DNA of 64,000 bases from an uncultured Clostridia bacterium (GCA_944386645.1 CALXBW010000004.1:11256-75255); one strand, 5' to 3'. Positions 1 through 38,076 are shown, counted from the first letter of the stretch. The notes: generated by a model not told the origin, from the sequence alone. Made by a program: numbers and translations.

Positions 1-1500
1 ATAGATAAAAAATATATAGAAGATTCGATTGTAAATTTAAGAACAAAAAAGCAAATAGTTTTGGAAAAAAGAGAAGATGTAGATTGGGTTTATTTATATA
101 AAGCATATAAAGCAGAAGAAAACATTGCTGAAAAATTACTAACTTTACTTAAAAGTAAAAATGTTAAGAAAATTGATAATATAAAAGAAAAATTGGAGAA
201 ACAAGAAAAACAATATAATATACAGTTATCTGAAAAGCAAAAAGAAGCAATTGAGTTAGTTAATAATAATAATGTTTGTGTTATAACTGGTGGACCAGGT
301 ACAGGAAAAACAACTATAATAAAAAATATAATAGATATTTATAAGACAAAAAAGTTAAAAGTAATTTTATGTGCACCAACAGGAAGAGCTGCTAAAAGAA
401 TGAAAGAGGCAACTAATGAAGAAGCAAAAACTATACATAGATTACTTGAAATAGGCAAAATAGAAGAAGATAGAAATAGTATGGTTGAGTATGATGTAGC
501 TCCAATAGATGCGGATGTTATAATAATTGATGAGATGTCAATGGTAGATACATATATAATGAATTATTTAGTAAAAGCAATTTATAGAGGAACAAAATTA
601 ATATTAGTGGGAGATGAAAATCAATTACCATCTGTTGGTCCAGGGACTGTATTAAAAGACATAATAGATTCTAAAAAAATTCCTACAATATGTTTAAATA
701 AAATTTTTAGGCAAGCTGCAAAAAGTCAGATAGTATTAAATGCTCATAATGTAAATAATGGAAAAGATTTTGTAAAAAAAGAAGATATGAATTCTGATAT
801 TAAGGAAGATTTTTTCTATATAAATGAATCAAATCAGGAAAAAATATTAAATCATGTTCTCACACTTTCTAAAAATAAATTAAAAATGTCTGGTAGTGAA
901 GATTTTTATAATAATATACAAGTGTTAACTCCGACTAAAAAAGGATTAGTTGGAACTAGAGAGCTTAATAAAAGACTACAAGAAGTATTAAACCCTCCAT
1001 CTGAAAGCAAAAAAGAGAAAAAATATGGTGAGGTAGTTTTCAGAGAGGGAGATAAAATAATGCAAATAAAAAATAACTATGATATTTTTTGGGAGAAAAG
1101 GACTGGAAATTACGAATCTGGAACTGGTATTTTTAATGGTGAAATGGGAATTATAGAAAATATTGATGAAGAATCAAAACAAGTAAAGATATTATTTGAT
1201 GATGATAAAATTGTATGGTATACATATTCTGACTTAGAGCAGATTGAACATTCATATAGTATAACTATTCATAAATCACAAGGAAGTGAGTTTGATGTAG
1301 CAATAATAGTAATTCCAAAAGCTTATCAAATGTTATTAACCAGAAATTTACTATATACAGGATTGACAAGAGCAAAAAAAATGCTTATATTAATTGGAGG
1401 GAAAGAAACCATAAATTTTATGATTCAAAATGCAAAAATAAAACAAAGAAATACTGGTTTGAAATTTAAATTACAAAATAGTTTATTAAATAATTTTTAG
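1..1500 (+). CDS. recD2: ATP-dependent RecD2-like helicase, C-terminal ~500 aa. The 5' end is truncated by the window: the reading frame is open from base 1.
   Basis: Walker A GGPGTGKTT, VILCAPTGRAAKRM and IIIDEMSMVD (helicase motifs I, Ia, II), and a C-terminal SH3/UvrD-like region IHKSQGSEFD. The frame of ORF 61..1500 stays open back to position 1. Confidence 0.85.
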   Translation: MDKKYIEDSIVNLRTKKQIVLEKREDVDWVYLYKAYKAEENIAEKLLTLLKSKNVKKIDNIKEKLEKQEKQYNIQLSEKQKEAIELVNNNNVCVITGGPGTGKTTIIKNIIDIYKTKKLKVILCAPTGRAAKRMKEATNEEAKTIHRLLEIGKIEEDRNSMVEYDVAPIDADVIIIDEMSMVDTYIMNYLVKAIYRGTKLILVGDENQLPSVGPGTVLKDIIDSKKIPTICLNKIFRQAAKSQIVLNAHNVNNGKDFVKKEDMNSDIKEDFFYINESNQEKILNHVLTLSKNKLKMSGSEDFYNNIQVLTPTKKGLVGTRELNKRLQEVLNPPSESKKEKKYGEVVFREGDKIMQIKNNYDIFWEKRTGNYESGTGIFNGEMGIIENIDEESKQVKILFDDDKIVWYTYSDLEQIEHSYSITIHKSQGSEFDVAIIVIPKAYQMLLTRNLLYTGLTRAKKMLILIGGKETINFMIQNAKIKQRNTGLKFKLQNSLLNNF

Positions 1501-1535
1501 TAAACTGTAGATATGGGGGCATAAAGGAGAATAAA

Positions 1536-2177
1536 TTGTATAACTTTTTGAATTTATGTTATCCAAATGTATGTGGTATTTGTGAGAAAATAAGTAATGA
1601 ATATATATGCAATAAGTGTAGATTAAAAATAAAACAGTATACTAAGTCAATTATAAACGAATTTGATAATGCAAAATATTTTAATACTCATGCATATATG
1701 TTTGCATATGATGGAATTATAAGAATGAAAATTATAAAATATAAATTTTTAAATTCACCCTATTTATATAAATTTTTTTCAAATATTATTTTAAATGATT
1801 TAAAATTAGTAGATTATATTAGAAGTTTTGATGTTATAATTCCAGTACCAATACATAAAAAAAGAAAGAAAAAAAGGGGATATAATCAATCTGAATTAAT
1901 AGCAAAAGAAATAGCAAAAAGATTAGAAGTTCAATTACAGTTAAATGTATTATATAAAAATGTAAATAATTCACCACAAAGTACTTTAAATCAAGAACAA
2001 AGAAAATATAATGCAAAGGGTGTATATATATTAAAAAATGAGAAATTAATAAAGAATAAAAATATATTAATTTTTGATGATATTTATACAACTGGTAATA
2101 CTGTAAATGAGTGTAGTAAGATAATAAGAAATGCACAAGTTAATAATGTTGGAGTATTAACACTAGCAAAAGATTAA
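1536..2177 (+). CDS. comFC: ComF-family competence protein (phosphoribosyltransferase domain)
   Basis: N-terminal Cys pairs CxxC...CxxC. PRTase motif ILIFDDIYTTGNT near the C-terminus. It sits directly downstream of recD2, as in many Firmicutes. Confidence 0.8.
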   Translation: MYNFLNLCYPNVCGICEKISNEYICNKCRLKIKQYTKSIINEFDNAKYFNTHAYMFAYDGIIRMKIIKYKFLNSPYLYKFFSNIILNDLKLVDYIRSFDVIIPVPIHKKRKKKRGYNQSELIAKEIAKRLEVQLQLNVLYKNVNNSPQSTLNQEQRKYNAKGVYILKNEKLIKNKNILIFDDIYTTGNTVNECSKIIRNAQVNNVGVLTLAKD

Positions 2178-2189
2178 AAGGAGAGATAA

Positions 2190-4175
2190 ATGGAAGATTT
2201 AGTAGAAAGTATATTAGATTATGTAAGAGCAGATTATACAGATTATGCAATTATGATAAATGGAGAATGGGGAAGTGGAAAGACATATTTTTGGAATAAT
2301 AAAGTAAGAAATAAAATTGAATCTTTAAGATTAAACGGAAAACAGTATACAACAATATATATGTCTTTATATGGAATATCAAATTTAGAGGATATAAGTA
2401 AAAAAATTTTTATAGAAACTACTCAATTAATGGATAAGAATCTAAAAAGATATATGTATGCACATAATCAACTAACTATTCCTGAGTATGCAAAAACTGG
2501 ATTAGATATGGCCAATTTTTTTGGAGTTACAAAAAATGGTGATAGAGTAGATTATGAGCAGTTTTTTACAACTGATGATAAAGTATTATGTTTCGATGAT
2601 TTGGAAAGAGCAAATGTTGATGTTATAGATATATTAGGATATATTAATAATTTTGTTGAGCATGACCATATAAAAACTATAATAATTTGTAATGAAAAAG
2701 AGTTGTCAAATAAATTAAAAAGTTCTAATCTTGAAATGAAAACTTTTATTGCAACATATTTATTAGATAAAGAAGGAGATTTATCTAAGACAGATAAACC
2801 AATGGTTGAAAAAATTAGAGACAAAATAGAATATGTATTTGATAAAGCAAATGATTATGAAAGAATAAAAGAAAAATTAATAGGTGAGACTTTTGAATAT
2901 GTTCCAGAATTTGCTTATATTATTGATGGTTTATTGATGCGTTATTCAAAAGATGAAGATTTAATAAGATTTTTAAAGGAAAATTCACAATTATTGGTTT
3001 CAACATTTAATAAAAGTGGTACAAGAAACTTAAGAATTTTAAAACATGCATTAAATGATTTTAAAAAAATATTTGATATGGTTAATAAATATTACCCAAA
3101 TACAAATTATAAAGTTTTAAAAACTATGCTTATATTTACAATTGCTATTTCATTTGAAATAAAAGCAGGAAAAATTACAAAAAATAAATTTATAAATATT
3201 GAGAATAATGAAGAATATAAAGCGATACTTGTATCATCAAGAGTTTTAATGGATAATAGACAATTCTATATTAAAGAATTTGATAATAACTATTATTACA
3301 ATTTTAAAGCAGAATATAGATTTTTTAAATTTATTGAAATATATGTAAGAACTAGAATATTTGATATGAAGGTATTTAAAAGAGATATGGAAGTTATAAT
3401 AAATACAATAGATACTGATAAATTACCAGGTTATAAAAGATTATTAACAGAAGAATACTGGAAGATTTCTGATGAACAGTTTAATGGGGTCATTGAAGAA
3501 GTTGTAGACGATGTAAAAAATGGAAGAATTGGTCTAATTGATGTTGTAAAATTATATGTATATTTTAATTATTTTTCTAAAAGAAAATTAATAGACTATG
3601 ATACTAAAAGTATAAAAAATCTTTTCTTAAATGGAATGAATATATCTGCTTTAACTTCTGAATATTGTGACGATGCAGATGAACAATTAAGTCAAATAGG
3701 TATAGGTGAAATAACTCCAGATATGCAAGATGTATTTGATCATTTTGAAAATATAAATAAAACATTAAAAGATAAAATGTATGCACAAAATGCAGAAGAT
3801 CTATTTAAATGTATTCCAATGAAAATGGAGATGTTTTATACGAAGTTTGAAAAATACATGGAAATACCAATATTCAAATATTATGATGCATATCAAATAT
3901 TCCAGAGAATATCATGTGCTAATAATGAAGATATAGTTTCTATAAGAGAGTGTTTGATGAAAAGAGCAAAAAAATATACGAAAGAGTTAGAGCCAGAAAT
4001 TGAAAATTTAACAAAATTAAAAAATATAATAGATACTTATTTAGCTGGAAAAGATATAGGTATAAAAATAGTAATGTTACAAGAATTTTCAAATGATTTA
4101 GATACTATATTAAAAATATATAAAAATGAGCCTACATTAGAAGGAATGCAAATACAAAGTAGTAACGTTGAATAA
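2190..4175 (+). CDS. KAP-family P-loop NTPase (661 aa)
   Basis: Exact KAP Walker A signature INGEWGSGKTYFW (G-x-W-G-x-GKT) near the N-terminus and a downstream LCFDDLER Walker B-like motif. The long C-terminal region has no other recognisable domain. Confidence 0.75.
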   Translation: MEDLVESILDYVRADYTDYAIMINGEWGSGKTYFWNNKVRNKIESLRLNGKQYTTIYMSLYGISNLEDISKKIFIETTQLMDKNLKRYMYAHNQLTIPEYAKTGLDMANFFGVTKNGDRVDYEQFFTTDDKVLCFDDLERANVDVIDILGYINNFVEHDHIKTIIICNEKELSNKLKSSNLEMKTFIATYLLDKEGDLSKTDKPMVEKIRDKIEYVFDKANDYERIKEKLIGETFEYVPEFAYIIDGLLMRYSKDEDLIRFLKENSQLLVSTFNKSGTRNLRILKHALNDFKKIFDMVNKYYPNTNYKVLKTMLIFTIAISFEIKAGKITKNKFINIENNEEYKAILVSSRVLMDNRQFYIKEFDNNYYYNFKAEYRFFKFIEIYVRTRIFDMKVFKRDMEVIINTIDTDKLPGYKRLLTEEYWKISDEQFNGVIEEVVDDVKNGRIGLIDVVKLYVYFNYFSKRKLIDYDTKSIKNLFLNGMNISALTSEYCDDADEQLSQIGIGEITPDMQDVFDHFENINKTLKDKMYAQNAEDLFKCIPMKMEMFYTKFEKYMEIPIFKYYDAYQIFQRISCANNEDIVSIRECLMKRAKKYTKELEPEIENLTKLKNIIDTYLAGKDIGIKIVMLQEFSNDLDTILKIYKNEPTLEGMQIQSSNVE

Positions 4176-4605: not shown

Positions 4606-4633
4606 TTAAAAATTGTTTACATTGAAAATTTTT
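4606..4633 (+). promoter_or_regulatory. Sigma-A-like promoter TTTACA-N16-TGaTATAAT upstream of the amidase gene
   Basis: The -35 TTTACA (4606-4611) and extended -10 TGaTATAAT (4625-4633) were read directly. An RBS aaaaggagaagtg precedes the ATG at 4672. Confidence 0.5.
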
Positions 4634-4671
4634 ATGATATAATGTAAAAAAATTAAAAAAGGAGAAGTGAA

Positions 4672-6207
4672 ATGAAAAGAAAAATTTTTATAAGTACATT
4701 AATATGTTTAATTGTTTTAGTAATGTCAACTAATGTACATGCATTAAAACTTGTTTTAGATGCTGGACATGGAGGTTCTGATTCAGGAGCAATTTATAAT
4801 GGAGTTTATGAAAAAAATATTAATCTTAGAATTGCTTTGAATTTGAGAGAATATTTAAGTGATTATGAAAATGTAGAAGTTATATTAACAAGAGATAATG
4901 ATACTTTTGCAGAAGTTTTTGATAAAGCTATGGTAGCGAGAATAAATTCTGCAGATTTATTTATTAGTTTACATACAAATGATACAGAAGGAACAGGAAA
5001 TGGTGCTGAAGCTTTTGTTTCTGCAAATACTAGTTTACCAAAATACAATGAACAAACTACAGCTTTAGCTAATAAAATATTACAAAATCTTTCAGCTTTA
5101 GGTTTAGAAAATAGAGGTGTAAAAACAAAACAAATAAGAACAGAAAATGGAGATTTTTATTATAGAAACCCTGATGGAACAACTGCTGATGCTGATTGGT
5201 ATGGTATTATAAGATATGCAATGAGAGGCTGCAAGATGGACTATGGTGAAATAATATATGGGCAATATAATGATATAAGAGATGGAAGCGGAGTTCCTAC
5301 TATTTTAGTTGAACATTGTTTTATTAATGGTGATTTTGAATATATAAATTCAGAAGAAGACCTAAGAAAATTAGCAGAAGCTGATGGAAAGGCTATAGTT
5401 GACTATTATGGATTAAAGAAAAAATCTGTAGATACAAATATAAGTTTAACTGCAAATAGTACAGATATAAATTCTGGAGATCAAGTAACAGTAAATGTTA
5501 ATTCATCAACTGCATTAGGAGCTTATGAAGTTTCTATAGTAGATGATGGTGGATTAAATTTTGTTACAAGTTCTGGACAAGAAGGTAGTGGAGGACAATT
5601 AATAACTGGTTCATCAACATCAGGAGTAAATGATTTAGCTACATTTACTTTCGAAGCTCCTGATACAACTTTAGATAAGACATATAATGTTAAAATAAAA
5701 GTTTCAAAAATGGAGACACCAAATAATAATCCAGTATATGAAAAAGAAGCAACTATTACTATAAATGCTAAAGGTAGAGAAGCAAAAACACAATTTGTTG
5801 GTGAAATTAAAAATGAGAAATTACCTAATACAGGTTTAGGTTTTTTATTAGGAAATAAATCTGATATATTAGATGGTAGTGATTTAAAAGCCACATACTC
5901 TGATAGCATTATAGAGAAAGATGGAACAGAAATTACAGAAAATACACAATTTGTAACAGGCGATATTGTTGATATTGATGGTACAAATTATATACTTATA
6001 ATATATGGTGATGGAAATAAAGATGGAAAAATAAGTATATTAGATACATCAACAGTAATATCTGAAATACGTGGAAAAAAGCAATTAGATGATGTTCAAA
6101 AAATTGCACTTGATGTGACAAAAGAAGGAAAAATAAGCGTTTTGGATTCAACAAAAATAATTAACGTAATTAGAGGAAAAAGTGAGTTTTTATCATTGCT
6201 AAATTAA
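4672..6207 (+). CDS. Secreted N-acetylmuramoyl-L-alanine amidase (Amidase_3) with an internal LPNTG and a C-terminal dockerin-like repeat pair
   Basis: Signal peptide. LVLDAGHGGSDSGA (Amidase_3 zinc-binding motif). Internal KLPNTG. Two C-terminal repeats, GDGNKDGKISILDTSTVISEIRGKK and DVTKEGKISVLDSTKIINVIRGK, resemble dockerin Ca-binding segments. Confidence 0.7.
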   Translation: MKRKIFISTLICLIVLVMSTNVHALKLVLDAGHGGSDSGAIYNGVYEKNINLRIALNLREYLSDYENVEVILTRDNDTFAEVFDKAMVARINSADLFISLHTNDTEGTGNGAEAFVSANTSLPKYNEQTTALANKILQNLSALGLENRGVKTKQIRTENGDFYYRNPDGTTADADWYGIIRYAMRGCKMDYGEIIYGQYNDIRDGSGVPTILVEHCFINGDFEYINSEEDLRKLAEADGKAIVDYYGLKKKSVDTNISLTANSTDINSGDQVTVNVNSSTALGAYEVSIVDDGGLNFVTSSGQEGSGGQLITGSSTSGVNDLATFTFEAPDTTLDKTYNVKIKVSKMETPNNNPVYEKEATITINAKGREAKTQFVGEIKNEKLPNTGLGFLLGNKSDILDGSDLKATYSDSIIEKDGTEITENTQFVTGDIVDIDGTNYILIIYGDGNKDGKISILDTSTVISEIRGKKQLDDVQKIALDVTKEGKISVLDSTKIINVIRGKSEFLSLLN

Positions 6208-6278
6208 TATACTTGACAAATACTAAAATTTAGTATAGAAATATAGTAAATAAAAGGAGGTGAAGGAGAGGGTTTTAG

Positions 6279-6938
6279 GTGAGTAAAAAAAATTTCAACA
6301 CAGGTAGAAGAGCTAAAAAAAGCAATAGAAAAAAAATTGCAATAAAAATATATTTTGTTATAATTGTTATTTTTGTTATAATAACAGGAATGGTAATTGC
6401 AAGTAATAAAAAAGATGATAACAAAGAAAATAATATAGCACAAAAGGCATATAGTGAAAGTCAAACAAATGTAAGTAATTTAACAGATATTAAAGAAGTA
6501 AAAAAACAAGATGAAGTAGTATCTGTTAGCGATATGCCAAAAAAAATAGGAAATTATGAAGTGATAGGAAAAATTGTAATAGATAGTATAGATGTAGAAA
6601 AATATATATTAAATAGAACTACTATAAATTCATTAGATTTATCTGTAACAAAGTTTACAGGGCCTGAAATAAATGAGGTAGGCAATTTTTGTATAACAGG
6701 ACATAATTATAAAAATATTTTTAAAAGATTAAAAGAATTAGAGATAGGTGATGAATTTTATTTAGTAGGTACAGATGGTAGAAGGGTTTATTATAAAATA
6801 TATGATAAATATTCTATTAATCCAGAAAATGAAGAATGTTTAAATCAAGAAACAGGAGGAAAAAGAGAAGTAACATTAATTACTTGCGATCCTGGTGCTG
6901 TAACAAGATTAATAATAAAAGCAGAAGAGAAAATTTAG
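6279..6938 (+). CDS. Sortase (class A/D-like transpeptidase), GTG start
   Basis: N-terminal TM anchor. Catalytic His (FCITGHN), Cys (TLITCDP) and Arg (TRLIIK) motifs. Confidence 0.8.
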   Translation: MSKKNFNTGRRAKKSNRKKIAIKIYFVIIVIFVIITGMVIASNKKDDNKENNIAQKAYSESQTNVSNLTDIKEVKKQDEVVSVSDMPKKIGNYEVIGKIVIDSIDVEKYILNRTTINSLDLSVTKFTGPEINEVGNFCITGHNYKNIFKRLKELEIGDEFYLVGTDGRRVYYKIYDKYSINPENEECLNQETGGKREVTLITCDPGAVTRLIIKAEEKI

Positions 6939-6950
6939 GAGGAAATAAAA

Positions 6951-7673
6951 ATGAAAAAAACTTTAATAGGATTTATAATAATGGTTGTAGCAATGTTTAT
7001 GGCCTTATCAGGAGCTGTTAATGCTGCAACAAAGATGACTGTAGAAGGAGCAAAAAATGTTGAAGTGGGAGATGAAATAACATTAACTGTTAAATTCCCA
7101 GAAGCATTTGGATATCAATTTACTGTTAATTTTGATGATACAAAATTAGAATATTTAGGTACACTTGAAGCTGTTAATAATGGATCATTTACAGTAGCTT
7201 TTCAATCAACAGGAGATGAAAGATTTACATCTTATGATTTAAAATTTAAAGCTTTGGAAAAAGGTGATGTTAATATTACAATTTCTGATTTAGAATTTGT
7301 AAGTGAAGATGTAGAATTAATAGATGTTGAAGCACCAGATCCAATAACATTTTCAATTACAGAACCAGTAACTGATCCAGAACCAACACCTGATCCAGAT
7401 GAAAATACAACAGGTGATGAAAATAACACAGCTGGAGATAATACAACTGGAGATGAAAACAATATAGGAGATAACAATACAACAACAGATGATGAAAATG
7501 GAAATGTTGCTGGAAATACAGATAACGGAAATACAAATAAAGAAGATAATGGAGATGAAACAATTACTTCACTAAAAGATGCAAAAACAGGTTTTGATAT
7601 AATGTATGTTGCTTACTTATTAATGGCTATAGTAGTAGCTGCAGTAATTGTTAAGGTTTCAAAAAGAAAATAA
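6951..7673 (+). CDS. Surface protein with a cohesin-like beta-sandwich domain and a C-terminal membrane anchor with a charged tail
   Basis: Signal peptide ...SGAVNAATK. Central domain GDEITLTVKF...FTVNFDDTKLEYLG...GDVNITISD, resembling type-I cohesin. Acidic TGDENN repeats. C-terminal hydrophobic segment plus KVSKRK tail. No canonical LPXTG (KDAKTG precedes the anchor). Confidence 0.5.
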   Translation: MKKTLIGFIIMVVAMFMALSGAVNAATKMTVEGAKNVEVGDEITLTVKFPEAFGYQFTVNFDDTKLEYLGTLEAVNNGSFTVAFQSTGDERFTSYDLKFKALEKGDVNITISDLEFVSEDVELIDVEAPDPITFSITEPVTDPEPTPDPDENTTGDENNTAGDNTTGDENNIGDNNTTTDDENGNVAGNTDNGNTNKEDNGDETITSLKDAKTGFDIMYVAYLLMAIVVAAVIVKVSKRK

Positions 7674-7960
7674 GAAATAATATAAATTTATAAAAGAGGT
7701 CATATAAACTATAAAAAGTTTAATGACCTCTTACTTGTTGTAAAAATAATTATTTTTTACATTTAACAAATCACTACGTTTTAAAAGAAAACTTATATAT
7801 TTAATCGGAGAGAAGGAAGTTTTCAAGAAACTGCGATTTGTCTATAATTTAGAATAAATAGAAAGAATTAATCTTTCATAATTTTACCTTTTAAAATTAA
7901 TATAAATAAACTAAATTCATATCATAAAAATTAAAAGATAAAATTTAATTTTGAGCATAA

Positions 7961-8143
7961 CTATTTTTGAACATTTCTATTTGCAATTTCAATAGCCTTT
8001 GTAACTATATTACCACAAGTTTTAGAAGGTACATTACTCCATCCACCATCAGCTTTAACTTGTTCATATACTCCTAGCTCTTTTGCTATTTCTTCTTTTA
8101 ATGCTTCAGACATTATGCTCTTCTTAGTTGAATTATTAGCCAT
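7961..8143 (-). CDS. Small acid-soluble spore protein, alpha/beta type
   Basis: A 60 aa protein with the diagnostic alpha/beta-type SASP core EIAKELGV...GG..NV.SKTCGNIVTKAIEIA. Confidence 0.85.
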   Translation of the reverse strand: MANNSTKKSIMSEALKEEIAKELGVYEQVKADGGWSNVPSKTCGNIVTKAIEIANRNVQK

Positions 8144-8415
8144 CAGGTAAAAACCTCCTCAGAGAAGAAAAGTAGTATTTCAAAGAAATTAAAAAAATTA
8201 TTAAGTATACTTAAATAAATATAAAATATAAAGAAATACTAAATATAATATATAATAAGTAAACTTGAAAATAAAATTTTAATTTCTTTAATATTATTAT
8301 GAGCAAAAAAACAAAAAATATTTATAGATAAATTTGCCAAAAAAAAATTAAATAGTTTACAATGAAATAAAAATGTGTTTTAATAATATTATTATGTAAG
8401 GGGAGATGATTACTT

Positions 8416-36918: not shown

Positions 36919-38076
36919 ATGGCCAATTATGTATATAGAGCGGTATTAGAAAACTACAGTAAAGAAGAAGGAATAAAATGTAAAGAAAAAGATTCTGATA
37001 AATCTTTAAGTTATCATGTTAATTTTGGAAGTAAAAAGAATGTGAAAACAAAATATATATCTACTAGTAAAAAAATAGGAATTGCTGCATATAAATATGC
37101 AATAGGTAAAGTTAATGAAAACAGAATTAAAAGATCAAAAATAGTATTAATAGATTTAGATAAATTACCAAAAGAACAAAAATATTATGACTTAACAGAT
37201 GAAACTGTATTAAAAGAACAAAAAATTAGTCGTATGTCGAAAAATTATTGTAAATCAGATGCAGAAGTTACAATAGAAGGAGATATAGGACCTGAATGTG
37301 TAAAAGAAATACCACCAATGTTAGTAGATATTTTGTTTGCACTTGAGAGTTCTGGTAATGCAAATAAAATGTTCTATGATATGTTATTAGACAGAGTGGC
37401 TGAAGGTGATATGGAACTAGATAAAATAATTGAAAAATGTAAATTTAATAAATTAGAGCAAAATTTTATTAAATCATATTATACAGATATGAATCAATTA
37501 GAAGAAACAGCTAAACAAATACTGCCTGAGATGTTGGATGAGAAAAAAGAAGATAATAGAGAGTTTATAGCAAATTGTATAAGAACACAGATAATAAAAA
37601 ATGTTGTAGCATCACAATTACATAGAGATTTAAAATATTATACAGGTCCATTAGAAGGAAAATTAAATTCTCATTATAGAACAGAAAAAGATAGAGTGAA
37701 AAAAGATTGTTATTATTTTAATGATTATTTATCAATAAAAGTAAATAATGATGATATGATAAAACTACCAAATGGAATTAATTATGAAGTTGGTAAGAAA
37801 AATGAAGTTAAAACATTGCAGTTAATAGAAGCGCATTTAACTAAAGAAAATTTTGAAACTCCATCAATACCACGTGATAAAGACAATAGATATAAATCAT
37901 TTGAAGGAATAAGAATAGAAATTGATAAAAAAAGAGTAAAAGATAATAATGAAATAAATTTAGATGATATAAAAAGTACATTAAAAATAGGAAATGCAAA
38001 AGAGAGAAAAGAAGTAGATAATTATATTCAAAGACAAATGCAAAGACAAAGAGGAGCGCGCGAAAGAGGGGAATAA
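36919..38076 (+). CDS. Hypothetical protein A of an uncharacterised four-gene cassette (385 aa)
   Basis: Lys/Glu-rich. N-terminal region contains YVYR...YISTSKK. No confidently recognised domain. Translationally coupled to the next ORF (taaAATG). Confidence 0.45.
   Translation: MANYVYRAVLENYSKEEGIKCKEKDSDKSLSYHVNFGSKKNVKTKYISTSKKIGIAAYKYAIGKVNENRIKRSKIVLIDLDKLPKEQKYYDLTDETVLKEQKISRMSKNYCKSDAEVTIEGDIGPECVKEIPPMLVDILFALESSGNANKMFYDMLLDRVAEGDMELDKIIEKCKFNKLEQNFIKSYYTDMNQLEETAKQILPEMLDEKKEDNREFIANCIRTQIIKNVVASQLHRDLKYYTGPLEGKLNSHYRTEKDRVKKDCYYFNDYLSIKVNNDDMIKLPNGINYEVGKKNEVKTLQLIEAHLTKENFETPSIPRDKDNRYKSFEGIRIEIDKKRVKDNNEINLDDIKSTLKIGNAKERKEVDNYIQRQMQRQRGARERGE

What the first reader, a model, noticed from the sequence alone, without database searches (positions are those of the whole stretch)
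4672..7673. Three-gene surface module: amidase with dockerin-like tail, sortase, and an anchored cohesin-like protein
Gene 1 (4672..6207) is a secreted Amidase_3 peptidoglycan hydrolase. Its C-terminus has two 23-aa segments that look like dockerin Ca-binding repeats (GDGNKDGKISILDTSTV, DVTKEGKISVLDSTKI). Gene 2 (6279..6938) is a sortase (TLITC). Gene 3 (6951..7673) is a secreted protein with a cohesin-like beta-sandwich domain, acidic TGDENN repeats, and a C-terminal hydrophobic anchor plus KVSKRK tail. Together they suggest a mini cohesin-dockerin system that tethers a cell-wall amidase (autolysin) to the cell surface, a non-cellulosomal use of cohesin/dockerin pairing.
Basis: partly seen in the sequence, partly recalled or inferred. 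Interest (0 to 1): 0.55.

Follow-up and report, generated by a model that had tools for sequence, protein, structure and literature searches.

The report
Sortase-anchored cohesin docking a wall amidase
A three-gene operon in a low-GC gut Clostridia-like bacterium encodes a secreted cell-wall amidase ending in a dockerin, a dedicated sortase, and a small wall-anchored cohesin protein, so it most likely forms a minimal, non-cellulosomal docking system that holds the amidase on the cell surface; the principle is already known from rumen and gut ruminococci.

Summary
Gene 1 (4672-6207) has Amidase_3 and Dockerin_1 above Pfam thresholds, and gene 2 (6279-6938) is a sortase. Gene 3 (6951-7673) misses Pfam Cohesin directly but is a divergent short cohesin: family profile vs PDB E 6e-11 to 3e-4, and an AlphaFold model matches the C. 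perfringens NagJ cohesin (TM 0.72).

Comparative data support a functional unit. The amidase-sortase-cohesin order recurs in at least four other lineages, usually followed by one or two ~1140-aa dockerin proteins. Dockerins within one genome resemble each other more than their orthologues do. An adjacent sortase was seen in every locus examined whose anchor has a non-LPXTG signal, and in none of three with canonical signals.

- The sorting signal is non-canonical, L-K-[DES]-[AT]-K-T-G-F-D, conserved in 21 protein clusters.
- A conserved ~55-aa segment precedes every dockerin (X-Doc-like).
- This species' amidase carries a ~130-aa insertion, a second cohesin-like module ending in LPNTG.

Binding itself is inferred, not shown. 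Closest precedents are ScaE with its X-Doc clients (including an NlpC/P60 protein) in R. flavefaciens and Sca2 in R. bromii. Verdict: new variant of a known kind, moderate interest.

The parts
4616..4643 (+). Promoter-like site (TTTACA-16-TGnTATAAT, 11/12 matches), 29 nt upstream of gene 1
   Evidence: It is the best-scoring site in the region, but such matches are common in 25% GC DNA, so this is only suggestive.
4672..6207 (+). Gene 1: secreted N-acetylmuramoyl-L-alanine amidase with an inserted cohesin-like module, an X segment and a C-terminal dockerin (511 aa)
4672..4743 (+). Gene 1 signal peptide (MKRK..., hydrophobic core, VHA|L)
   Evidence: Read from the sequence. The N-terminus is conserved in orthologues. 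No signal-peptide predictor was run.
4753..5397 (+). Amidase_3 catalytic domain. H33, E47, H101 and E214 are invariant in 5 orthologues. It contains a ~45-aa insertion relative to the Pfam model.
   Evidence: Pfam E 3.1e-34; PDB amidases Cwp6 and CwlV at E 1e-16 to 1e-15; invariant columns. Assigning these residues as the Zn and catalytic residues rests on general knowledge of the family.
5434..5838 (+). Lineage-specific insertion: a second cohesin-like beta-sandwich (aa ~255-370), a short linker and an LPNTG pentapeptide (nt 5821-5835)
   Evidence: Absent from the orthologues of L005, L010, L013 and L016. hhalign to the cohesin family profile gives probability 90.6%, E 1.3e-6. The AF2 model has pLDDT 82-95. 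The top Foldseek hit is 2w1n, with 2xdh and 3l8q also listed, but many generic Ig hits are mixed in.
5836..6003 (+). Conserved ~55-aa pre-dockerin segment ('X-like': LGFLLG...TGDIVDIDGTNYILIIYGD)
   Evidence: Conserved in all 10 amidase and large-protein dockerin dyads. No PDB sequence match. The structure model is not interpretable.
6004..6168 (+). Dockerin_1 module with two F-hand loops, DGNKDGKISILD (6010-6045) and DVTKEGKISVLD (6112-6147)
   Evidence: Pfam 34.5 bits against cut-off 22.9. The X-Doc profile hits only dockerins in PDB (4uyq, 2ccl, 5m2o and others).
6279..6938 (+). Gene 2: membrane-anchored sortase (TM 6336-6401; catalytic domain 6573-6929; His in ITGHNY 6693-6710; TLITC 6873-6887; Arg in VTRLI 6900-6914)
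   Evidence: Pfam Sortase E 1.5e-21. TIGR01076 passes, but no class-specific NCBIfam cut-off is met. Nearest PDB entries are class A and class C sortases at E 3e-8 and weaker. The orthologue in L005 matches at E 6.5e-76.
6951..7673 (+). Gene 3: ScaE-like monovalent anchoring protein (240 aa)
6951..7025 (+). Gene 3 signal peptide (MKKT..., VNA|A)
   Evidence: Read from the sequence. Conserved across the family.
7029..7370 (+). Short (~115 aa) cohesin module
   Evidence: Profile A1 against PDB: 3l8q at 6e-11 and the NagJ cohesin at 4e-7, aligned end to end. AF2 pLDDT 86-96. Foldseek 2jh2 at E 1.3e-8, TM 0.72, rmsd 2.3 A, plus 6kgf and 2xdh.
7371..7568 (+). Disordered D/E/N/T/G-rich linker (66 aa; TGDENN at 7410-7427 and 7446-7463); its length varies between strains
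   Evidence: pLDDT below 50. Composition. Variants of 236 and 220 aa exist.
7572..7670 (+). Non-canonical cell-wall sorting signal: LKDAKTG (7572-7592), hydrophobic helix FDIMY...VKV (7593-7658), SKRK tail (7659-7670)
   Evidence: The motif L-K-[DES]-[AT]-K-[TL]-G-F-D-[AI]-[MI]-Y is conserved in 21 clusters. Distant family members have LPQTG, IPQTG, LPNTG or MPQAG at the same place. It is the only sorting-signal-like C-terminus in the window.
7694..7732 (+). Strong hairpin about 20 nt after the gene 3 stop; a probable terminator between the convergent gene 3 and SASP gene
   Evidence: The folded 136-nt stretch 7665-7800, which contains this hairpin, has MFE -26.8 kcal/mol and z -5.4 against shuffles. 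It was not picked up by the simple terminator scan.

Best explanation
The three genes form one operon that builds a minimal cohesin-dockerin display system on a Gram-positive wall.

Proposed mechanism:
1. Gene 3 is secreted and retained by its C-terminal helix and SKRK tail.
2. The adjacent, specialised sortase (gene 2) cleaves it within the non-canonical signal LKDAKT|G and links it covalently to peptidoglycan.
3. Its ~66-residue acidic disordered linker spans the wall and presents a single short cohesin at the outer face.
4. The secreted amidase (gene 1) has no classical wall-binding domain (no SH3, LysM, CWB2, SPOR or choline-binding repeats). It is captured through Ca2+-dependent binding of its C-terminal X-dockerin dyad to that cohesin.
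5. A peptidoglycan amidase is thereby held at the outer surface of the producer's own wall, for wall turnover or daughter-cell separation.

In related species the same anchor also docks one or two ~1140-aa dockerin-bearing surface proteins encoded just downstream. The anchor is therefore a general docking station, and the window's species keeps only the amidase client in the locus.

Shown here: domain identities, operon-like organisation, conserved synteny, the conserved variant signal, and within-genome dockerin similarity.
Inferred: sortase cleavage at the variant motif, cohesin-dockerin binding and its specificity, and the target of the amidase.
For: Domain identities: Amidase_3 and Dockerin_1 above Pfam cut-offs, Sortase, and gene 3 cohesin by transitive homology, profile versus PDB and predicted fold.

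Operon: same strand, gaps of 72 and 12 nt, RBS before each gene, promoter-like site upstream, hairpin downstream.

Synteny: amidase(-Doc), sortase and cohesin-anchor appear in the same order in the same species and in diverged lineages. These are L005 (33% identity for gene 3), L010-12, L013-15 and L016-17. Further Dockerin_1 proteins lie immediately downstream.

Variations on the theme: in L006 the sortase-cohesin pair follows two LRR proteins with dockerin-like tails. In L007 and L019 a dockerin protein directly precedes a cohesin protein.

Shared partner: the L005 amidase dockerin and the L005 large-protein dockerin are 52% identical, against 26-40% to orthologous dockerins of other genomes.

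Dedicated sortase: it is present next to all anchors with non-LPXTG signals that were examined and absent next to three anchors with canonical signals. Gene 3 is the only sorting-signal-bearing ORF in the window.

Amidase anchoring: no other wall-binding domain is detectable in the amidase.

Precedent: the sortase-anchored ScaE cohesin binds X-Doc proteins, including an NlpC/P60 protein (PMC3573020). R. bromii Sca2 is described as a general surface anchor (PMC4611034).
Against:
- Gene 3 does not reach the Pfam Cohesin threshold by itself. It is ~25 residues shorter than canonical cohesins, so its dockerin-binding face is unverified.
- The second Ca loop of the dockerin (DVTKEGKISVLD) departs from the canonical D-x-[DN]-x-[DN] pattern.
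- In L010 and L013 the amidase's second repeat is degenerate, and Pfam does not report a dockerin there.
- The window's amidase contains its own cohesin-like module, which is an alternative partner.
- Only 64 kb of the genome is visible, so other cohesins and dockerins may exist elsewhere.
- Cleavage of a [DES][AT]KTG motif by a sortase has no tested precedent that I could cite.
Confidence: 0.65

Rival explanations
1. Same hardware, different target. The surface-docked amidase is a weapon or foraging enzyme that lyses neighbouring bacteria or processes exogenous peptidoglycan fragments (a minimal 'lyticome'), rather than an autolysin acting on the producer's own wall.
For: Dockerin-bearing lysozymes and DD-carboxypeptidases in rumen metagenomes were interpreted this way (PMC6487960). 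The 'lyticome' concept is stated in PMC6403190. The long wall-spanning linker puts the enzyme at or beyond the outer wall face. The organism appears in many metagenome samples from dense communities, and one relative is in a sample named 'Hadza'.
Against: There is a single amidase and no accompanying muramidase or endopeptidase in the locus. The locus is chromosomal and syntenic among housekeeping genes, with no immunity gene evident. Amidase_3 enzymes with signal peptides in Firmicutes are typically autolysins (general knowledge).
Confidence: 0.15
2. The amidase's dockerin does not bind gene 3. It binds the amidase's own inserted cohesin-like module, in cis or between molecules to form chains, or it binds a cohesin encoded elsewhere. 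Gene 3 then displays other dockerin proteins.
For: The window's amidase carries a cohesin-like module. R. bromii Amy4/Sca1 has a cohesin plus a dockerin in one enzyme (PMC4611034). In relatives, large dockerin proteins lie next to the anchor and could be its true clients.
Against: Amidase orthologues in four other lineages lack the insert yet keep the X-Doc and the position directly upstream of the sortase and anchor. Amidase and large-protein dockerins of one genome are alike, which suggests one shared receptor. No other cohesin or dockerin is present in the 64-kb window. The fold assignment for the insert is not specific.
Confidence: 0.12
3. Co-location without pairing. The dockerin-like tail is only a Ca2+-binding stabilising or wall-binding module. 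Gene 3 is a sortase-anchored adhesin with an Ig-like or cohesin-like fold that binds something else, such as a host or dietary ligand. The genes cluster only because all act at the envelope.
For: Many non-cellulosomal dockerin-like and cohesin-like modules have no demonstrated partner (general knowledge; Peer et al. 2009 as cited in PMC3821032). Gene 3 misses the Pfam Cohesin cut-off. The L006 cargo tails have lost the Ca-ligand pattern.
Against: The recurrent adjacency of dockerin-bearing genes to cohesin anchors in independent lineages, and the within-genome convergence of dockerin sequences, are hard to explain without a shared receptor. The closest structures are bona fide dockerin-binding cohesins.
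Confidence: 0.08

Closest known systems
ScaE anchoring scaffoldin with X-Doc clients (ScaB, CttA, RflaF_05439) of Ruminococcus flavefaciens
   Same: Both are small secreted proteins with one cohesin and a C-terminal sortase signal that are fixed covalently to the wall. Clients carry an extra module directly before the dockerin (X-Doc). One client, RflaF_05439, is made of NlpC/P60 cell-wall-hydrolase-like modules (PMC3573020).
   Different: - There is no sca cluster, no multi-cohesin scaffoldin and no dockerin-bearing glycoside hydrolase in the window.
- The sortase is encoded inside the operon.
- The sorting signal is LK[DES][AT]KTG, not LPXTG.
- The cohesin is ~115 aa and its nearest structure is the C. 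perfringens NagJ type, not ScaE.
- The client is an Amidase_3 enzyme.
- The X segment has no detectable sequence similarity to solved X modules.
Sca2 of Ruminococcus bromii (amylosome surface anchor)
   Same: It has one cohesin and a predicted sortase signal. It binds dockerins of several unrelated proteins including peptidases, and was proposed as a general surface-anchoring device in a human gut Firmicute (PMC4611034).
   Different: Sca2 is 534 aa and works in a starch-degrading context with amylase clients. No dedicated adjacent sortase and no amidase client have been described for it.
Non-cellulosomal cohesin-dockerin pair NagJ (GH84C) / NagH (mu-toxin) of Clostridium perfringens
   Same: It is the closest match to gene 3 in both sequence and structure (2jh2, 2o4e, 2ozn, 2w1n). 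It is a cohesin-dockerin pair used outside cellulose degradation in a low-GC Clostridium (refs in PMC3821032).
   Different: There the modules join two secreted glycoside hydrolases into a toxin complex. No sortase-anchored cohesin and no peptidoglycan hydrolase are involved.
Dockerin-bearing cell-wall hydrolases ('lyticome' idea; lysozyme in the R. champanellensis cellulosome)
   Same: A peptidoglycan-degrading catalytic module is fused to a dockerin and recruited by a scaffoldin cohesin (PMC6403190 citing Morais 2016 and Bensoussan 2017; PMC6487960).
   Different: Those enzymes are lysozymes or carboxypeptidases embedded in large cellulosome systems. Here the enzyme is an Amidase_3 in a self-contained three-gene cassette with its own anchor and sortase.
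Dedicated sortase-substrate pairs (for example class D/SrtD LPxTA(TN), class E LAXTG, C. difficile SrtB (S/P)PXTG)
   Same: A sortase gene sits next to its single substrate, which carries a variant pentapeptide (general knowledge; NCBIfam model names).
   Different: Gene 2 meets none of the class-specific NCBIfam cut-offs; the best is class C at 59 bits against 160. As far as I could find, the motif [DES][AT]KTG followed by the invariant FD.MY has not been described.

Membership tests
Dockerin type I (Pfam PF00404) | Profile match above the curated gathering score | tested here: met
   34.5 bits against 22.9, E 2.3e-8, aa 445-499 covering profile positions 1-55 of 57. The X-Doc profile hits only dockerins at the top of the PDB list.
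Dockerin type I (Pfam PF00404) | Duplicated ~22-residue segment, each with a 12-residue EF-hand-like Ca2+ loop (D-x-[DN]-x-[DN]-G-x-[IV]-x-x-x-D) followed by a helix | tested here: met
   Loop 1, DGNKDGKISILD, is canonical. Loop 2, DVTKEGKISVLD, has T and E at positions 3 and 5. The repeats are 13/23 identical. Ca2+ binding itself was not tested.
Dockerin type I (Pfam PF00404) | Binds a cognate cohesin | not testable with these tools
   Only a monomer structure predictor was available. The support is indirect: synteny and within-genome dockerin similarity.
Cohesin (Pfam PF00963) | Profile match above the gathering score (24.1 bits) | tested here: not met
   Gene 3 gives no PF00963 hit at E <= 1. 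The orthologue in L006 passes (35.9 bits) and the one in L005 is just below (21.2 bits). Relatives P0022, P0028, P0034 and P0036 pass.
Cohesin (Pfam PF00963) | Homology to solved cohesins by profile search | tested here: met
   The 19-sequence family profile has only cohesins as its top 20 PDB hits (3l8q at 6e-11; NagJ 2o4e at 3.9e-7, aligned over profile positions 9-124). Gene 3 on its own hits only the NagJ cohesin, at E 2e-3.
Cohesin (Pfam PF00963) | Flattened jelly-roll beta-sandwich fold matching cohesin structures | tested here: met
   AF2 pLDDT 86-96 for aa 30-140. Foldseek top hits: 2jh2 (E 1.3e-8, TM 0.72, rmsd 2.3 A), 2w1n, 6kgf/6kge, 2xdh. The module is ~25 residues shorter than canonical cohesins.
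Sortase (PF04203 / TIGR01076) | Profile match and the catalytic His / TLxTC Cys / Arg triad | tested here: met
   Pfam 76.9 bits and TIGR01076 51.4 bits against 39.35. The ITGHNY, TLITC and VTRLI motifs are present.
Sortase classes A-F (NCBIfam class models) | Score above a class-specific cut-off | tested here: not met
   Best scores: class C 59 against 160; SrtD 46.8 against 140; class E 42.6 against 160; class D 36.7 against 165. The class is left unassigned.
LPXTG cell-wall sorting signal | LPXTG pentapeptide, ~15-20 hydrophobic residues, then a positively charged tail at the C-terminus | tested here: inconclusive
   The hydrophobic helix and SKRK tail are present, but the pentapeptide is DAKTG, within LKDAKTG. 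The motif is conserved in 21 clusters. Distant homologues have LPQTG, IPQTG or LPNTG at the same position. Cleavage was not tested.
ScaE-type monovalent anchoring scaffoldin | Signal peptide + single cohesin + sortase signal, serving X-Doc clients | tested here: met
   The architecture is shown. The clients carry a conserved pre-dockerin segment. Binding was not tested.
ScaE-type monovalent anchoring scaffoldin | Member of a sca-type cellulosome gene cluster (ScaA/B/C, CttA) anchoring glycoside hydrolases | tested here: not met
   No other cohesin, dockerin or scaffoldin ORF is in the window. The neighbours are a helicase, a PRTase, a KAP NTPase, a SASP and MetG. It is therefore filed as an analogue, not as ScaE.
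Amidase_3 (N-acetylmuramoyl-L-alanine amidase) | Profile match plus conserved Zn ligands (His, Glu, His) and catalytic Glu | tested here: met
   Pfam E 3.1e-34. H33, E47, H101 and E214 are invariant among 5 orthologues. The mapping to Zn and catalytic roles is by motif (DAGHGG, SLH, VEH) from general knowledge. It is not CwlD or AmiA/B/C; those NCBIfam scores are far below cut-off.

The most novel reading that the evidence does not exclude
The cassette may define an orthogonal wall-display system. In this reading, a new sortase specificity class recognises [DES][AT]KTG-FD.MY instead of LPXTG. It installs a dedicated cohesin 'socket' that replaces classical wall-binding domains as the way a Gram-positive bacterium positions an autolysin at the outer face of its wall.

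In this species the amidase has additionally captured a cohesin + LPNTG fragment. It could therefore either act as an adaptor that recruits further dockerin proteins, or be processed at the internal LPNTG by a housekeeping sortase and become covalently wall-bound while shedding its X-Doc.
Probability: 0.15. Interest if true: 0.7.

Novelty: new variant of a known kind. Interest (0 to 1): 0.45.

Why it matters
If the pairing is real, this is about the smallest natural cohesin-dockerin system known: one enzyme, one anchor and one sortase in 3 kb, in an uncultured bacterium that recurs in many metagenome assemblies.

- It would show that cohesin-dockerin docking is used as a general surface-retention mechanism for peptidoglycan hydrolases, in place of SH3, LysM or CWB2-type wall-binding domains. 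That adds a concrete, testable case to the 'lyticome' and non-cellulosomal dockerin discussion.
- The strictly conserved non-LPXTG signal, paired with its own sortase, is a candidate for a new and possibly orthogonal sortase-substrate pair. That would be of practical interest for sortase-mediated ligation and surface display.
- Scientifically it extends a known principle (ScaE/X-Doc, R. bromii Sca2) rather than revealing a new one.

Tried and rejected
1. Direct Pfam and NCBIfam annotation of gene 3 gave nothing usable. The word-indexed homology search found only 3 near-identical proteins. The exhaustive search was needed.
2. Several top hits of that search are giant SprB, WD40 or repeat proteins with many short matched stretches (P0004-P0021). 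I treated them as compositional or repeat noise and left them out of the profile. Only single-stretch, near full-length matches were used.
The permitted MSA covers only the insert, so the X-Doc part of model 2 (pLDDT below 50) was not interpreted.
4. Cohesin-dockerin co-folding was not possible, because there is no multimer tool.
5. The metagenome scan with the anchor alignment returned one short locus (L018).
6. The last homology search, on the amidase tail, returned only 3 fragments.
7. Prophage endolysin was rejected. The amidase has a signal peptide, there are no phage genes nearby, and the context is syntenic chromosomal.
8. CwlD or germination amidase was rejected (TIGR02883 58.9 bits against 221.55), despite the adjacent SASP gene.
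9. A class C pilus sortase was rejected. The class cut-off is not met, the only hydrophobic segment identified is N-terminal, and no pilin-like gene lies between or beside the three genes in the window's ORF list.
10. The organism could not be named. Related GTDB records are labelled Lachnospiraceae or Clostridium sp. MAGs, but the window's own species was not recovered there.
11. Rfam found no RNA family anywhere in the window.

Full report
1. WHAT IS THERE

The window is 23-29% GC per 2-kb window throughout and is chromosomal. Its genes include a RecD2-like helicase, a ComF-like phosphoribosyltransferase, a KAP NTPase, MetG and a class A PBP.

The gaps are 72 and 12 nt, and each gene has a GGAG/GGAGG ribosome-binding site. 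The best promoter-like site of the region lies 29 nt upstream of gene 1. A strong hairpin lies ~20 nt after the gene 3 stop (7694-7732; the folded stretch 7665-7800 scores z = -5.4). An operon is the natural reading, but it is inferred.

2. DOMAIN IDENTITIES

Gene 1. Pfam finds Amidase_3 (aa 28-242, E 3.1e-34) and Dockerin_1 (aa 445-499, 34.5 bits against a gathering score of 22.9). The nearest solved amidases are C. difficile Cwp6 and CwlV. H33, E47, H101 and E214 are invariant among five orthologues. By the family's known motifs these are the Zn ligands and the catalytic Glu; that mapping is general knowledge, not tested here. The two dockerin loops are DGNKDGKISILD (canonical) and DVTKEGKISVLD (T and E at positions 3 and 5). 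The repeats are 13/23 identical. No classical wall-binding domain is detected.

Gene 2. It matches Pfam Sortase (E 1.5e-21) and TIGR01076. It has an N-terminal TM segment and the His, TLITC and Arg motifs. It meets none of NCBIfam's class-specific cut-offs. Its nearest solved relatives are class A and class C enzymes at only E ~1e-8.

Gene 3. The assignment nevertheless holds:
- (a) phmmer against all PDB chains returns only four entries. All four are the cohesin of C. perfringens NagJ (E ~2e-3).
- (b) An exhaustive HMMER search of 1.84 billion representatives found 51 relatives. Among those that match over the full domain, P0022, P0028, P0034 and P0036 carry PF00963 above threshold at the aligned position. 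So does the syntenic orthologue in L006 (35.9 bits).
- (c) A 19-sequence profile of the family (A1) has cohesins as all of its top 20 PDB hits (ScaB 3l8q at 6e-11; NagJ at 4e-7, end to end).
- (d) An AlphaFold2 model built on 33 family members is confident over aa 30-140 (pLDDT 86-96). Its best Foldseek matches are 2jh2 (NagJ cohesin, E 1.3e-8, TM 0.72, rmsd 2.3 A), 2w1n, the C. acetobutylicum CohA2-dockerin complexes and the A. fulgidus non-cellulosomal cohesin.

The module is short, ~115 aa.

(i) The C-terminus of gene 3 is a sorting signal, but a non-canonical one. Twenty-one protein clusters of 195-240 aa share L-K-[DES]-[AT]-K-[TL]-G-F-D-[AI]-[MI]-Y, followed by a hydrophobic stretch and a KRK-type tail. 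More distant members of the same small-cohesin family have LPQTG, IPQTG, LPNTG or MPQAG at that position.

(ii) Every dockerin in these loci is preceded by a conserved ~55-aa segment (...F.L....D..TG.D......TGD.V.IDG..Y..IIYGD). This is an X-Doc-like dyad. The segment has no sequence match in the PDB.

(iii) The window's amidase contains a ~130-aa insertion (aa ~255-388) that orthologues in four other lineages lack; they have a Pro/Thr/Glu linker there. The insertion matches the cohesin family profile (hhalign 90.6%, E 1.3e-6) and aligns along the whole domain. It is modelled confidently as a beta-sandwich (pLDDT 82-95). It ends in a canonical LPNTG (aa 384-388), which is the only LPXTG in the window. 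Its Foldseek list is led by a cohesin-containing structure, and 2xdh and 3l8q also appear. However, generic Ig-like folds are mixed in, and the MSA itself was made of cohesins. 'Cohesin-like' is therefore probable, not proven. It looks like an in-frame capture of a cohesin-plus-LPXTG fragment from an anchor-type gene.

4. COMPARATIVE EVIDENCE FOR A FUNCTIONAL UNIT

The exact gene 3 protein occurs in ~190 blocks of public assemblies, on contigs up to 182 kb. All four places shown have the same arrangement.

In diverged relatives (gene 3 identity ~30-40%) the same order recurs: RecD2, PRTase, KAP NTPase, amidase(-Doc), sortase, cohesin anchor, then SASP and MetG. One or two additional ~1140-1400-aa proteins are inserted after the anchor. 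These carry a signal peptide followed by an N-terminal X-Doc (L005; L010-L017).

Two further loci show variations:
- In L006 a sortase-cohesin pair (signal IPQAG) follows two LRR proteins. Their C-termini are duplicated dockerin-like segments that have lost the Ca-ligand pattern.
- In L007 and L019 a dockerin protein directly precedes a cohesin protein.

Two correlations go beyond adjacency:
- Dockerins of different proteins in one genome are more alike than orthologous dockerins in different genomes (L005: 52% against 26-40%). This is what a shared, co-evolving receptor would produce.
- An adjacent sortase is present for every anchor with a non-LPXTG signal that I examined. It is absent for three anchors with canonical signals (P0093, P0100, P0091). 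This argues that gene 2 is a specialised enzyme for gene 3.

Within the window there is no other cohesin, dockerin, sortase, amidase or sorting-signal protein.

5. MOST LIKELY MECHANISM (confidence ~0.65)

- Gene 3 is exported and retained by its C-terminal helix and charged tail.
- Gene 2 cleaves it at the variant signal and attaches it to peptidoglycan.
- The acidic linker spans the wall and exposes one cohesin.
- The secreted amidase docks to that cohesin through its X-Doc in a Ca2+-dependent way.
- This provides the wall retention that SH3, LysM or CWB2 domains give other Firmicute autolysins. It would place the enzyme at the outer, older wall layers.

Shown: domains, organisation, conservation and the correlations above. 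Inferred: cleavage, binding, specificity and the target wall.

Rivals:
- The enzyme targets other bacteria ('lyticome', 0.15).
- The dockerin binds the amidase's own insert or a distant cohesin, and gene 3 serves other clients (0.12).
- Mere co-location without pairing (0.08).

6. COMPARISON WITH WHAT IS KNOWN

The principle is established.
- R. flavefaciens ScaE is a sortase-anchored single cohesin that binds X-Doc proteins. These include RflaF_05439, which consists of NlpC/P60 wall-hydrolase-like modules (PMC3573020).
- R. bromii Sca2 is a sortase-signal cohesin proposed as a general surface anchor (PMC4611034).
- C. perfringens uses cohesin-dockerin outside cellulosomes (references in PMC3821032).
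- Dockerin-bearing lysozymes and carboxypeptidases, and the word 'lyticome', are already in the literature (PMC6403190, PMC6487960).
- I found no paper that links a dockerin to an Amidase_3 enzyme. Four papers contain both terms and none describes such a fusion.

What is different here:
- the self-contained three-gene cassette with its own sortase;
- the conserved non-LPXTG signal;
- the Amidase_3 client;
- the short NagJ-like cohesin;
- the absence of any cellulosomal context;
- in this species, the second cohesin-like module with LPNTG inside the amidase.

It works like ScaE/X-Doc. It is not a member of the sca cellulosome system, because that defining context was tested and not met.

7. VERDICT

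Novelty: a new variant of a known kind. Interest 0.45: a neat, experimentally tractable minimal system with a possibly new sortase specificity, but not a surprise to specialists in cellulosome or sortase biology.

Noticed in passing
window 5434-5838 (gene 1 aa ~255-388): The amidase carries a ~130-aa lineage-specific insertion absent from all orthologues examined. It is a cohesin-like beta-sandwich ending in a canonical LPNTG, placed immediately before the conserved X segment. It looks like an in-frame capture of part of an LPXTG-anchored cohesin gene. Whether the internal LPNTG is ever cleaved is unknown.
   Followed up: partly
window 7572-7670; P0054-P0074, P0022, P0033, P0048: A non-LPXTG sorting signal, L-K-[DES]-[AT]-K-[TL]-G-F-D-[AI]-[MI]-Y, is strictly conserved in 21 protein clusters. 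In every locus examined it was accompanied by an adjacent sortase that fits no NCBIfam sortase class. This is a candidate new sortase-substrate specificity.
   Followed up: partly
L005 8735-12340; L010 9780-13202 and 13478-16909(-); L013 9781-14001; L016 9469-12900: Relatives encode one or two 1140-1406-aa proteins right after the cohesin anchor. Each has a signal peptide, an N-terminal X-Doc and fn3-like regions. These genes are absent from the window, where the SASP gene follows gene 3 directly. Their function is unknown.
   Followed up: partly
L006 1778-4243 and 4259-6682: Two LRR surface proteins lie upstream of a sortase-cohesin pair. They end in a duplicated dockerin-like tail (YGDVTGSGSPGSKDALAIVK...EPTSSDALAIIK) that has lost the Ca2+-ligand pattern and is not detected by Pfam. 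This may be a Ca-independent dockerin derivative.
   Followed up: no
L010 6607-7869; L013 6563-7870 (amidase orthologues): The second dockerin repeat of these amidases is degenerate (AQTRNSDTLNIMDAV), and Pfam reports no dockerin for them. The large proteins in the same loci keep two good repeats. This hints at single-site binding for the amidase in those species.
   Followed up: no
window 5100-5290 (gene 1 aa ~150-205): The Amidase_3 domain spans 215 residues against 172 profile positions. A ~45-aa insertion (…DWYGIIRYAMRGCKMDYG…) is highly conserved among orthologues. It could be a regulatory or auto-inhibitory element like those of AmiB/AmiC, but this was not examined.
   Followed up: no
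window 7371-7568: The length of the acidic gene 3 linker varies between strains (240, 236 and 220 aa variants; P0002, P0003). This is consistent with repeat slippage in the TGDENN-type region.
   Followed up: no
window 61-4175 and 7961-9993: The cassette is always embedded in the same housekeeping context: RecD2-like helicase, ComF-like PRTase, a 661-aa KAP-family P-loop NTPase directly upstream, and an alpha/beta-type SASP (minus strand) and MetG downstream. The constant KAP NTPase neighbour is unexplained.
   Followed up: partly
window 1-64000: Rfam (gathering thresholds) found no RNA family on either strand of the whole 64-kb window. There is not even a T-box or other leader upstream of metG (8144-8415).
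   Followed up: no
window 36919-38076: A 385-aa ORF matches only DUF7587 (E 3e-7). It is a gene of unknown function in otherwise housekeeping surroundings.
   Followed up: no
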